NCBI GenBank assembly: GCA_964252035.1
Contig: OZ176200.1
Reading direction: 5' to 3' (one strand)
Length of the DNA stretch: 64,000 bases
Source: Podarcis erhardii
Taxonomy: Eukaryota
Part shown: positions 45,901 through 48,900 of the stretch, piece after piece
Numbering within the stretch: the stretch's first letter is position 1
How the letters are laid out: every line of letters starts with the position of its first letter
Program-made: the position numbers

Positions 45901-48900
45901 TGAGAAGGGCTAGCTGAAACAGGGGCCTTCCTAAGATGTACAGGATCGAGAAGAGGATGGTGGTGTACTTTCTAACCCTGTCCCACCTACCAGAAGAAGT
46001 CCTGTTAGTCACTATTGTTTCTTTGGGTAACACCTAGCAACTAGCTGACTGTTACCGGTCTACTTTTGTTAAGCTTGGGTGAGGGAATTAATAACAGGGC
46101 CTCTCTCCTCTTCTGACTTTTTAATGTTTGCTTTTAATCGATGATCTTGCCCAGCTACCGTTTTATCAACCAGTTTGAATTCATGCCACTGCTGCTTGCA
46201 GTGGGGCTGTGATGATGGTATCTAATTAGCTAATACCAGAGCAAATGCCTTTAGTTATGAAAAGAGAGATCATCTTCATCACAGATTCCATCAATTGGTC
46301 GATAAATGTGCTCGAATCCATCTTGCTCCATATTGTCATATGCATTTGATGTTGCTATGTTGGTTCTGGTTTGGGAAGCTCCTTCCTCACCAAGGCCTCT
46401 GCTTCTATCCCCTGTTTTTGTCCCCGCAGTTCTCGTCTAGATTTAAGCCAGCTTCATCCAAAATCTTCTGGACCATGGACATTATGAGGTGTCCTTTATC
46501 TTTCAGGCTGTCCGAATGGCAGGGGTCTGCTTTTCTGTCACATGACCTGTGTGAGAATTTGGGGCCACAGCTCCCCTCCGCCCTGTCATAGTCACGGGGA
46601 ATGTAGCCATATGAGGAGGTGTTGCATTCACGAGGTCTGCAGTCTTTGTTCTTTTCCAGCAGGTGCTGCTGTATCTGCTGCAATGCTGTGACCAGAAGCT
46701 CTCTGGCATACAGATCCAGGGACTGCTTGTCCGGCACCTTGGTTCCTGCTGGAAAATGTTTCCTTGGGCATGGGCCACCTGCTCTTTCCTTTCCATAGTC
46801 ACAAGACTCCCTTTTCATGGATGCAAACTGCATGCCCTGACTGCAATGGCCCCGGGCCCCCCCTGCTTTATAGTTTGCAAAGGTGAAGTTTTGAGCTCTG
46901 TACTGCTTATCGTCTCCCAAGATGAGTTTAAACAAGCGCTTCACCATGACTTCCAAAACCTCCGCGGTCTTCTGGGTTCCAGCCTTGTAAAGGTTCCTCT
47001 TCAGTCCACAAACAAAATCAGAGTCTGTCATGAGCGCCCCTGTGATGTTGTGCAGGTTTTTCATGGAGGAGTCTATTAAGTCTGATACGATTTCCTTGGT
47101 GTGCTTCATAAGTACCTCTTTCAAAACAGCACATGCTGGCGGAGGGTGCCTACCTTTCTGGACTCTCATGGTCTTCAGGAAAGACAGCATCATGTCTGAA
47201 GCAACCTGATTTGCATACACCATCATCCCTTTGCTTATGGAAGTCATGTCGTCTGCTTTCCTGTCTTTGTCCATATACATGGCTTCATGTTGCTTGAAGT
47301 CATTGTGGTTTGCCATGTCCCCTGAAAATGGGTCGTCCCTCTTGATTTCTGGAGGCGTCTTGCATCGTTCCATATTCTCAGCTATATTCACCTTGTTCCT
47401 GTTGTTGTGGGGGCTAATGATATGGCGGGTGCATTTCCCTGAGCTTTCCCATTTCTCCTTGATCTCCTTGCGTGTCATTTCAACAACTAAGTTGCAGAGC
47501 TTATTGGCGTAATAGGCAATGTCATCTGAGTTCCCTCCTTCACTACCGGCACTGGAAGAAGTGTTGTTGTTGTTCCTGGATGCCAAGTCAAGTACCTTAG
47601 TCTTGCGAGGCTTTCTTAAGGATGTCAGCGCATGTTGGAATCCAACTGCATATTTCTGGAGGTCATTGTTGAGCCAGCTGACAACATTGTCATCATCAAT
47701 GGAGCCTTGCTTGAAAAGGCAAACTGCTCCCTCAGTATTAAAGCAGCTGTTTTGCTCATTGTCCTTGATTATGATGACCTCTCTCTCTTCCATATTCGCC
47801 AAGTCCAGCTCATTGTCAGGGTCAGAGATGTTCTTGGATCGACCAGTAGCTCCATCTCTCTCCTTTGAGTTCAGGTTGGCAACGTCGACAAAGCAAATCA
47901 CTTTACGTTCCTGGTCTTTATGTGTATCAGGGCTGTAGAGGTTTATCTTGCACACACCAGCCTGGCTGCTGAGCCAGTCTACTTCCTGTGCCATCTTTGT
48001 TAGTTACAAGTAGAAATGGATCAAGAGCTGTGCAGTGTTCTTCTTCCAGCTGAGCAGCTTGGATGACCCGGCCAGACTTGGGATGTTGGCTCCTCTTAAT
48101 CTTCCATGCTCTTTCTACCTCCAGGTGGTCTTCTCACTTATGTGGACACATAACAGCAGTGGTGACTTCACAAAGCATCAATGTTTTCCCACCAACCAGA
48201 AAAGAGTTGCCAAATGCTTTAGCAAGAGTGTGTCTTTCCACCACTACTGTAACCAGGGCTGTAGAGAGTCGTTCTTTTCAGATGAGCTGCTTTGGTGACC
48301 CTGCTAGACTCAAGATGTTACCTCTCTTATCTTTCCATGCTCTTCTGCCAGCAAGGGACATTTTCACTTGTGTGGACATGTAGCAACAATGACATCACAA
48401 AGCATCCAACCCACCCACCAACCAACTAACCAACCAACCAACCAGGGAGGTGCCTGTGTTTTAGCTTTGTAATTTTCTTAAACTATCATCTAGATGAAGA
48501 TTAAGACAATTCCTTTGAGCAGTCAATTTGATGACCAAGAGAATAAGTGGAAGCATGTGGATCTCTGAGCAGGTAAGAAAGAGACCCACTAGGAGGCAGA
48601 CCCAGTTTATGTGTTTCATCCTGTTTCATCTTTTGATGGATCCACATTTCAGGTTAACCTGGTACTTGCTAATGCTATTTTTCAGAAAGTATGTTTACCT
48701 CTTTCTTTTTGTGGGGAGGTTTCCTACATCTGGAATTCAAATGGAACACTTACATTGGCTAGACAGTTCATTCCACTTTCTGTCCTGCATTAATAGCCCT
48801 CAGGGGTGACACAATCCAGACTGAAATGTGTTCGTAGAATCAGCTAGGAAAACTTTCACATCCAGGTCTGATGTAAACTTATCCAGAACTAAGCAGCACT

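What the first reader, a model, noticed from the sequence alone, without database searches (positions are those of the whole stretch)
46000..46410. Sharp boundary between intact 5' ORF and decayed AKAP4 C-terminus
Seen: the ORF stops at ...CGDKNRG*, but homology resumes out of frame (FIDQLMESVMKM at 46306-46271, vs AKAP4 FIDKLVESVMKL). That frame has TAG before the motif and TAA soon after, and all frames then carry several stops. A weak ETIVTNRTSS near 46021 may match AKAP4 EVIVNNQCST. No QLQAVLQWIAAS or LLDWL block, the conserved C-terminal domain of AKAP3/AKAP4/SPHKAP, is recognisable. Multiple lesions within ~200 nt beside 529 unbroken codons argue against a single sequencing error. Inference: selection maintains a deliberately truncated scaffold that has shed the C-terminal domain.
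Basis: partly seen in the sequence, partly recalled or inferred. Interest (0 to 1): 0.68.

Follow-up and report, generated by a model that had tools for sequence, protein, structure and literature searches.

The report
Conserved truncated lizard AKAP4 paralog
This lizard gene is a shortened copy of the sperm-tail scaffold protein AKAP4 whose early stop is real and is shared by lizards and snakes generally, so it is a long-kept truncated gene and neither an assembly error nor a dead gene.

Summary
A 529-codon ORF on the minus strand (47994-46408) ends at TAG 46407-46405. Just downstream lies a frame-broken fossil of the ancestral reading frame (46387-46247..YDNMEQ....FIDQLMESVMKM..ITKG). It scores 86 against a shuffle mean of 36.3 (0 of 300 shuffles reach it).

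Counting the window, 20 of 23 complete "short" AKAP4-like proteins end at the same aligned residue; they come from geckos, a cordylid, lacertids, an amphisbaenian, a varanid, iguanians and snakes. Three gekkonid-type proteins read 8 residues further. The short clade is monophyletic, sister to a full-length squamate paralog, and follows the species tree.

It keeps both PKA-anchoring helices and the AKAP_110 core. It lacks a helix and the PARG/macro-like C-terminal domain.

A new point: squamates also carry a reciprocal ~335-aa paralog that holds only the C-terminal part. Function in sperm is inferred, not shown.

The parts
46408..47994 (-). Coding sequence of the short AKAP4 paralog ('type A'), 529 codons in a single uninterrupted exon. 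An AG lies directly before the ATG (47996-47995).
   Evidence: It is 99% identical (4 of 529 residues differ) to 'A-kinase anchor protein 4-like' of Podarcis raffonei, P0001.
46405..46407 (-). TAG stop. It sits where full-length lepidosaur and turtle relatives have Tyr (..RGY.. / ..NKNY..). A second in-frame stop, TGA, follows at 46389-46387.
   Evidence: The TAY-to-TAG origin is an inference from the protein alignment.
46247..46387 (-). Fossil of the ancestral continuation of the exon, in three frame segments (46387-46358, 46355-46323, 46321-46247). It includes YDNMEQ (46340-46323) and FIDQLMESVMKM (46306-46271). Homology ends near 46247-46229.
   Evidence: 0 of 300 shuffles; 17.4 bits.
47452..47526 (-). 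Residues 157-181, DDIAYYANKLCNLVVEMTRKEIKEK. This helix aligns with the rat AKAP4 segment that Pfam calls RII_binding_1.
   Evidence: alignment; rat residues 214-232 match PF10522; helix 158-183 in a low-confidence model.
47167..47235 (-). Residues 254-276, SKGMMVYANQVASDMMLSFLKTM. This is the second conserved amphipathic helix; that it is the second PKA site of AKAP4 is recalled.
   Evidence: One search shows invariant residues A261 to T275 across 22 short-type sequences.
46897..47286 (-). Core matched by Pfam AKAP_110 (residues 237-366).
   Evidence: E 2.7e-40, 138.8 bits against a cut-off of 25.
46435..46494 (-). Last conserved helix, GHLIMSMVQKILDEAGLNLD (residues 501-520). It is followed by the conserved new C-terminus, CGDKNRG.
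46120..46138 (-). Two ATTAAA hexamers, 266 and 279 nt after the stop. They are candidate polyadenylation signals, which would place the fossil in the 3' UTR.
   Evidence: Sequence only; no transcript data.

Best explanation
The locus is a functional, squamate-wide paralog of the sperm fibrous-sheath scaffold AKAP4 ('type A'). It arose by duplication of the lepidosaur AKAP4 lineage in stem squamates, onto a different chromosome from the full-length copies.

It has been kept in a truncated form of about 510-540 aa ever since. It retains:
- the N-terminal region;
- both amphipathic helices that anchor the regulatory subunits of protein kinase A;
- the AKAP_110 core;
- two further helices.

It lacks the helix ..NMEQINKQFIDQLVESVMKLC.. 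and the whole C-terminal PARG/macro-like domain.

The stop (TAG in place of a Tyr codon) is ancestral to living squamates. The roughly 140 nt behind it are an untranslated fossil of the former reading frame. Beyond about 46247 the rest of the gene is simply absent, through a deletion or a duplication that was 3'-truncated from the start.

Inferred, not shown: the protein works in the sperm flagellum as a PKA-anchoring scaffold that cannot make the contacts of the C-terminal domain.
For: Homologs. The ORF is 99% identical to a Podarcis raffonei protein, and short orthologs of 508-540 aa occur in Zootoca, Rhineura, Varanus, Pogona, Phrynocephalus, Hemicordylus, Sceloporus, two Anolis, Paroedura, Heteronotia, Sphaerodactylus, Crotalus, Thamnophis, Pseudonaja and Erythrolamprus, plus 5 unnamed records.

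Shared end. 19 of 22 rows of alignment A1 end in the same column and 3 read 8 residues further. P0001, left out of A1, ends the same way.

Tree of 50 rows.
- The 13 type-A rows form one clade (100*).
- That clade is sister to full-length type B (93), with Sphenodon outside both (99*).
- Its internal order follows the species tree.

Rate.
- Type-A branches are about 2.4-4.5 times longer than type-B branches for the same species.
- Identity to Podarcis is 73% (Rhineura), 66% (Varanus) and 64% (Paroedura) in A, against 89%, 84% and 83% in B.

Constraint: about 100 columns are invariant across the 22 rows, clustered in the helices and the core.

Family and helices: Pfam AKAP_110 at 138.8 bits. Both helices align with rat AKAP4, whose first one is Pfam RII_binding_1.

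Fossil. Domain absent.

The lost domain.
- In the model of type B it is the best-folded part (pLDDT 55-82 for residues 595-682 in an otherwise poor model).
- The top 18 Foldseek PDB hits of that model are all PARG catalytic domains (E 0.7-3.0, probability up to 0.97, 59-123 alignment columns).
- This agrees with PMC11377751 (passages read).

Location: A lies on a different chromosome-scale contig from B or C in 9 species, judged by the contig lengths.
Against: - No DNA of other squamates was available, so dN/dS was not measured. The fossil and the breakpoint could not be compared between species.
- There is no expression or protein evidence. All orthologs are computational gene models or unnamed assembled contigs.
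- The Pfam RII_binding_1 model does not hit type A at E <= 1. At E <= 0.01 it also misses types B and C. PKA binding therefore rests on alignment alone.
- The AlphaFold2 model of A is poor (mean pLDDT 35.2).
- The Foldseek PARG hits have no E-value <= 0.001.
- The fossil core is very well kept: 10 of 12 residues match type B and 11 of 12 match type C. That is a lot for sequence that should have been untranslated since the squamate ancestor, and it is unexplained.
- The gekkonid-type end differs, so the history of the stop is not fully settled.
Confidence: 0.82

Rival explanations
1. Assembly or sequencing indels, for example in the homopolymers at 46408-46425, created a false stop, and the true gene reads through to a full C-terminus.
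For: G4, A5 and G4 runs lie just before the stop. A +1 shift there would open a 61-codon frame that contains YDNMEQ.
Against: The peptide ..CGDKNRG and the stop position recur in independent assemblies of other species: 20 of 23 short-type sequences. The fossil needs at least three frameshifts and two stops to be read. The domain is absent from the whole window.
Confidence: 0.01
2. The whole locus is a pseudogene in decay, and the 529-codon ORF is intact by luck.
For: A broken fossil follows the ORF. The protein evolves faster than its sister paralog.
Against: Intact ORFs of matching length occur in 22 database sequences across all major squamate lineages. About 100 columns are invariant. The clade follows the species tree.
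Confidence: 0.02
3. The C-terminal domain is supplied by splicing to an exon outside the window, so the short form is only one isoform.
For: The window ends 46.4 kb downstream, and no transcript data were available. A GT follows the fossil (TCTG|GTATTA, about 46232).
Against: None of the 22 short-type database models carries the domain. A donor after the stop cannot rescue the frame. An Ensembl-type Anolis fragment (P0068) suggests that in the full-length gene most of the domain lies in the same large exon as the helix, and that part is missing here.
Confidence: 0.03
4. The fossil is not neutral debris. It is kept by selection as a 3'-UTR element, or refreshed by gene conversion from the full-length paralogs.
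For: The fossil core matches 10-11 of 12 ancestral residues although the stop is shared by all major lineages. It would lie inside the 3' UTR if the ATTAAA signals are used.
Against: - It has frameshifts and stops.
- There is no Rfam match in 44000-49500.
- The motif was picked out as the best-kept piece of a tail that is invariant in relatives, so ascertainment inflates the impression.
- Reptile neutral rates are low (background knowledge).
- The paralogs lie on other chromosomes.
Confidence: 0.12

Closest known systems
Mammalian AKAP4 (AKAP82, the major fibrous-sheath protein), represented here by rat P0101, 847 aa
   Same: - N-terminal region and both amphipathic helices (rat 214-232 is Pfam RII_binding_1; the VYANQVASDMM helix).
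- AKAP_110 core and later helices.
- 37% identity over 100% of the query.
   Different: - It ends about 210 rat residues (about 155 in type B) before the full-length C-terminus.
- It has no FIDQLVESVMKL helix and no PARG-like C-terminal domain.
- It lacks the mammalian insert between the N-terminal region and the first helix.
- Pfam matches 1 stretch instead of 3.
- It is a squamate-specific duplicate, not the ortholog.
Full-length squamate paralog 'type B' (for example Podarcis muralis P0045, 682 aa)
   Same: Sister clade. About 50% identity, collinear up to the stop. The fossil behind the stop continues the collinearity through ..NMEQ..FIDQL..KG.
   Different: - Type B keeps the helix and the C-terminal domain.
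- It evolves 2.4-4.5 times more slowly.
- It lies next to type C on another chromosome-scale contig.
Short squamate paralog 'type D' (for example Podarcis muralis P0128, 339 aa)
   Same: - It belongs to the same lepidosaur clade as A and B.
- It is conserved from geckos to snakes: 14 proteins of 304-387 aa with at least 63% identity, 7 named and 7 unnamed.
- It overlaps type A over about 135 residues (two helices).
- It reads ..TNRGH.. at the position of A's stop.
   Different: - It is the mirror image. It starts (MYSHGKEK..) at about residue 395 of type B.
- It lacks the N-terminal region, both PKA helices and the core.
- It keeps the helix and the whole PARG-like domain.
- It lies on yet another contig.
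AKAP3, SPHKAP and AKAP11 C-terminal PARG/macro-like domain (PMC11377751)
   Same: This is the domain type that type A has lost. The paper proposes that it binds poly(ADP-ribose) (passages read). The Foldseek hits of the type-B model agree with that.
   Different: Type A has none of it. AKAP3 and SPHKAP sequences were not examined here, so their relation is recalled or taken from the paper.

Membership tests
AKAP4/AKAP3/SPHKAP family (Pfam AKAP_110, PF05716) | Significant match to the family profile | tested here: met
   138.8 bits against a cut-off of 25, E 2.7e-40. Only residues 237-366 match (profile positions 97-225 of 690). Types B, C and rat match in 3 stretches.
AKAP4/AKAP3/SPHKAP family (Pfam AKAP_110, PF05716) | Conserved N-terminal region (..DWL..CK..KVICFVDV.., ..EGAVCLFKQG.., ..WL.NDLQKYA.GFQHAL..) | tested here: met
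   Alignment; invariant columns.
AKAP4 as a PKA anchor | First amphipathic R-subunit-binding helix (Pfam RII_binding_1 in rat residues 214-232) | tested here: inconclusive
   The homologous helix is conserved (DDIAYYANKLCNLVVEMTRKEIK). The Pfam model itself does not hit type A at E <= 1, nor types B and C at E <= 0.01. Binding was not tested.
AKAP4 as a PKA anchor | Second amphipathic helix (..VYANQVASDMM..) | tested here: met
   It is nearly identical from rat to type A and invariant in 22 type-A rows. That AKAP4 has two PKA sites comes from PMC11276731 (passage read). That this helix is the second site is recalled.
Full-length AKAP4 | Helix ..NMEQINKQFIDQLVESVMKLC.. within the protein | tested here: not met
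   It is present only as an out-of-frame fossil behind the stop.
Full-length AKAP4 | C-terminal PARG/macro-like domain (..SEVIVNNQ..LQAVLQW..KGYSVGD..DWLLANL) | tested here: not met
   It is absent from the protein and from all six frames of the window.
Full-length AKAP4 | Location in the sperm fibrous sheath and testis-specific expression | not testable with these tools
   No transcript or proteome data for this locus. An Akap4-like EST rises in the active gecko testis (PMC4795608, passages read), but which paralog it represents is unknown.
Pseudogene | Disabled reading frame and lineage-specific decay | tested here: not met
   There are 529 open codons here and intact orthologs in 22 database sequences. 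Only the stretch behind the stop is decayed.

The most novel reading that the evidence does not exclude
Squamates have split AKAP4 into two separately encoded, separately conserved halves, alongside their full-length copies. Type A (this locus) is the PKA-anchoring N-terminal three-fifths. Type D is the C-terminal two-fifths with the PARG/macro-like domain.

The two may arise from duplication followed by complementary loss, and they may re-associate non-covalently in the fibrous sheath. Type A would then act as an 'acceptor-only' scaffold that still offers the docking surface for a C-terminal domain supplied in trans.

Evidence so far.
- Both classes exist from geckos to snakes, on different contigs.
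- A clade of A plus D is not rejected in the 138-column overlap (lnL difference 0.81, p-AU 0.388), although the best tree puts D with B.
- The complex test of type A with residues 536-682 of type B gave 'weak support'. The score was 0.58 (runs 0.57, 0.58, 0.62) and the best of 3 controls was 0.01.
- In calibration, the mark was reached by 51 of 78 solved complexes and 2 of 108 mismatched pairs. At 0.60 or under, however, it was reached by only 5 of those 78 solved complexes and by all 4 mismatches that passed (of 180).
- The runs agree in at least 40% of contacts and the partner pLDDT is at least 51. The alignments were not used, and no interface was given.
- The partner tested was the paralogous type-B region, not type D, and a pass does not tell which family member binds.
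Probability: 0.15. Interest if true: 0.65.

Novelty: new variant of a known kind. Interest (0 to 1): 0.45.

Why it matters
AKAP4 is the main structural and signalling scaffold of the sperm fibrous sheath. What its PARG/macro-like C-terminal domain does is unknown.

Squamates offer a natural separation-of-function series, kept for roughly the age of the group:
- full-length copies (types B and C);
- an anchor-only copy (type A, this locus);
- a domain-only copy (type D).

That makes the question testable by comparing where each protein sits in the sperm tail and what it binds.

There is also a practical point. The stop at 46407-46405 is genuine, and annotation pipelines should not 'repair' it or flag the model as low quality.

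I found no description of these truncated paralogs in print. Only listings and the cited passages were read, and supplements were not seen. The proteins exist only as automatic 'A-kinase anchor protein 4-like' annotations.

Tried and rejected
- 'ETIVTNRTSS' at 46021 as a fossil of ..SEVIVNNQ..: not recovered. The region scores below the shuffles.
- A look-alike at 43417-43319 (minus strand..AHLEWIHASAWKVTN against ..AILQWMAASHFQVPN): score 41, reached by 14 of 40 shuffles of 46248-38000. The C-domain HMM does not report it. Treated as chance.
- Short tblastn hits at 56932-56967 (+), 18441-18412 (-) and 7751-7722 (-): none extends.
- Rfam on 44000-49500: 0 matches.
- AlphaFold2 of type A: mean pLDDT 35.2, so only the helix positions were used. 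Type B: mean 38.9, so only the C-terminal part is usable.
- PDB by sequence with the 38-row profile: 0 matches at E <= 0.01.
- Exact look-up of the window's protein: not in the collection.
- Paper search for the AKAP4 exon structure gave nothing usable, so the exon layout of the parent gene rests on one fragmentary Anolis model (P0068) and on recall.
- Self-blastn of 45600-46250: only an 82-nt repeat fragment (45697-45773, matching 54619-54700 at 78%). No transposon therefore explains the end of the fossil.
- One search failed because I asked for translations that contain stops. One search was an empty script.
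Full report
**What is in the sequence.** The window has no N, 45% G+C and a CpG observed/expected ratio of 0.18, as in a vertebrate genome.
- On the minus strand an ORF runs from ATG 47994 through 529 codons to ..CGDKNRG and stops at TAG 46407-46405.
- An AG lies directly before the ATG, and the coding sequence is one uninterrupted exon.
- In the original frame a second stop, TGA, follows six codons later.

**The fossil is real and longer than reported.** I wrote a frameshift-tolerant protein-to-DNA alignment. 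With the tails of full-length relatives it joins three segments:
- 46387-46358, RKELPKPEPT
- 46355-46323, ATSNAYDNMEQ
- 46321-46247, MDSSTFIDQLMESVMKMISLFITKG

These align with, for example, the turtle stretch KKALSK-QPNSAMDQFDNMDQMNKQ-FIDQLVESVMK-LCLFMAK. Spacing from the stop is collinear.

The statistics are clear.
- Score 86 against 300 dinucleotide shuffles of 46404-45705 (mean 36.3, sd 5.5, max 57); 0 of 300 reach it.
- Score 73 with the Podarcis type-B tail (shuffle mean 34.3, max 56); 0 of 300.
- An HMM of this stretch built from 38 full-length proteins hits 46348-46247 at 17.4 bits. The best of 30 shuffled windows is -0.4.

**Where homology stops.** Beyond 46247 nothing remains.
- The rest of the tail against 46248-45249 scores 28, below the shuffle means of 36.9 and 33.8 (148 of 150 and 147 of 150 shuffles reach it).
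- Over 46248-38000 the best score is 41, reached by 14 of 40 shuffles.
- An HMM of the C-terminal domain against all six frames of the window gives at best 0.6 bits, on the other strand.
The domain is missing, not decayed in place.
- No repeat in the window explains the breakpoint.

**What the gene is.** Pfam places the protein in AKAP_110 (138.8 bits, residues 237-366). The database search found 268 proteins at E <= 0.001 among 7092 candidates, with the best 120 listed. They fall into classes.
- The best hit is 'A-kinase anchor protein 4-like' of Podarcis raffonei, which differs at 4 of 529 residues.
- Twenty-seven of the 120 are shorter than 560 aa.
- Twenty-two of those are complete short proteins of 496-540 aa. 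They come from geckos, a cordylid, lacertids, an amphisbaenian, a varanid, agamids, iguanids and snakes, plus five unnamed records.
- I dropped five as fragments or aberrant models: P0015, P0022, P0058, P0066 and P0068.
- Squamates also have full-length classes of about 680 aa (type B) and about 780-790 aa (type C). Tuatara, turtles, alligator and mammals have only long forms among the listed hits.

**The stop is ancient.**
- In alignment A1 (the window plus 21 sequences), 19 of 22 rows end in the same column.
- Three gekkonid-type rows (Paroedura, Heteronotia and an unnamed record) read 8 residues further.
- A sphaerodactylid gecko has the common end.
- P0001, left out of A1 as near-identical to the window, ends the same way.
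- In type B, tuatara and one turtle class the next residue is Tyr, so a TAY-to-TAG change is the likely origin. This is an inference.

**Phylogeny.** In a 50-row tree (quick IQ-TREE):
- the 13 type-A rows form one clade (SH-aLRT 100);
- that clade is sister to type B (93), with tuatara outside both (99);
- inside the clade, geckos branch first, lacertids group with the amphisbaenian, the iguanians group together, and Varanus groups with the snakes, as in the species tree.

Type A thus arose in stem squamates and has been inherited vertically. From the crown node to Podarcis, Varanus and Paroedura the path is 0.46, 0.30 and 0.28 in A, against 0.18, 0.12 and 0.06 in B. Type A therefore evolves 2.4-4.5 times faster, yet keeps about 100 invariant columns.

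B and C share a contig in 4 species. In this window its neighbour is a Wnt-family gene on the other strand.

**What is kept and what is lost.**
- Kept: the N-terminal region.
- Kept: the helix DDIAYYANKLCNLVVEMTRKEIK, aligned with rat 214-232, which Pfam calls RII_binding_1.
- Kept: the helix SKGMMVYANQVASDMMLSFLKTM, the AKAP_110 core and two later helices.
- Lost: the ..FIDQLVESVMKLC.. helix and the C-terminal domain.

In the otherwise poor AlphaFold2 model of type B (mean pLDDT 38.9), that domain is the best-defined part (pLDDT 55-82 over residues 595-682).

The top 18 Foldseek PDB hits are all PARG catalytic domains (E 0.7-3.0, probability up to 0.97, 59-123 alignment columns; none at E <= 0.001).

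PMC11377751 (passages read; its supplementary figure was not seen) reports that the C-termini of AKAP3, AKAP4, SPHKAP and AKAP11 are remote homologs of the macro-domain half of PARG and may bind poly(ADP-ribose). No relative has a solved structure by sequence.

**A reciprocal short paralog.** I searched with residues 536-682 of type B among shorter proteins (29 hits at E <= 0.001 among 51 candidates) and then with the Podarcis muralis hit (19 hits at E <= 1e-30 among 1011 candidates).
- This revealed 14 proteins of 304-387 aa with at least 63% identity. Seven are named (Podarcis, Rhineura, Varanus, Pogona, Python, Gekko, Sphaerodactylus) and seven are unnamed.
- These 'type D' proteins start with a conserved MYSH/MYNH/MFNH.. 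at about residue 395 of type B.
- They overlap type A by about 135 residues and read ..TNRGH.. where A stops.
- They continue through the helix and the whole C-terminal domain.
- They lie on contigs different from those of A, B and C (Rhineura and Varanus).
- In trees, D falls in the same clade as B and tuatara (100).
- In the 138-column overlap, A, B and D form one clade with tuatara outside (100/99). D sits with B (92/83), and an A+D clade is not rejected (p-AU 0.388).

**Docking test.** Type A was folded with residues 536-682 of type B, and the verdict was 'weak support'.
- Score 0.58; best of 3 controls 0.01.
- In calibration the mark was reached by 51 of 78 solved complexes and 2 of 108 mismatched pairs.
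- At 0.60 or under, however, it was reached by only 5 of those 78 solved complexes and by all 4 mismatches that passed (of 180).
- The runs agree in at least 40% of contacts, and the partner pLDDT is at least 51.
- The alignments were not used and no interface was given.

This is at most a hint that A keeps the surface on which the C-terminal part packs. It does not show binding and does not tell which paralog would bind.

**Mechanism, with shown and inferred steps kept apart.**
- Shown: a conserved, truncated paralog of ancient origin, with a fossil behind its stop and the domain absent.
- Inferred: it is a sperm-flagellum scaffold that anchors PKA through its two helices and joins the fibrous sheath through its N-terminal and core regions, but cannot make the contacts of the PARG-like domain.
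- Background: AKAP4 has two PKA sites and binds AKAP3, FSIP1 and FSIP2 (PMC11276731, passages read). An Akap4-like EST rises in the active gecko testis (PMC4795608, passages read), though the paralog is unknown.

**Open point.** The fossil core still matches 10 of 12 residues of type B and 11 of 12 of type C, although the stop predates the radiation of living squamates. Slow neutral decay plus picking the best-kept piece may suffice to explain this. Constraint on the 3' UTR or gene conversion is not excluded.

**Novelty.** The proteins are in databases as automatic 'AKAP4-like' models. Six literature searches found no description of truncated or reciprocal squamate paralogs.

Noticed in passing
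window 5385-5867 (+) and 18600-19103 (+): Two exons of a Wnt-family gene (Pfam wnt, 109.7 and 208.5 bits, covering profile positions 34-152 and 151-305). This is the downstream neighbour of the AKAP4 paralog, on the opposite strand. Which Wnt it is was not determined.
   Followed up: partly
window 56932-56967 (+): A short peptide look-alike of the C-terminal domain motif (AKNRKLQAILQW against ..QNKELQAILQW..). It is the best C-domain HMM hit in the window at 0.6 bits, marginally above the best of 30 shuffles (-0.2). It is on the wrong strand and does not extend. Probably chance.
   Followed up: partly
window 45697-45773 and 54619-54700: A short interspersed repeat fragment (78% identity over 82 nt) lies about 630 nt downstream of the stop. 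From memory it resembles a squamate SINE core.
   Followed up: partly
database hits (no window coordinates): Reptiles carry several AKAP4 copies. Alligator has at least 5 listed proteins, 4 of them on one contig. Turtles have two classes of about 790 and 820 aa. Squamate types B and C share a contig. No bird protein is among the 120 listed hits.
   Followed up: no
window 47563-47574 (residues 141-144 of the ORF): A run of four Asn is invariant in all 22 short-type sequences. It is also present in type C, while type B has ..TSDSSF.. there.
   Followed up: no
gekkonid-type orthologs P0010, P0012, P0018 (no window coordinates): These three read 8 residues past the common stop (..NRAREPGYYIS), whereas a sphaerodactylid gecko has the common end. 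This suggests a secondary loss of the stop within geckos.
   Followed up: partly
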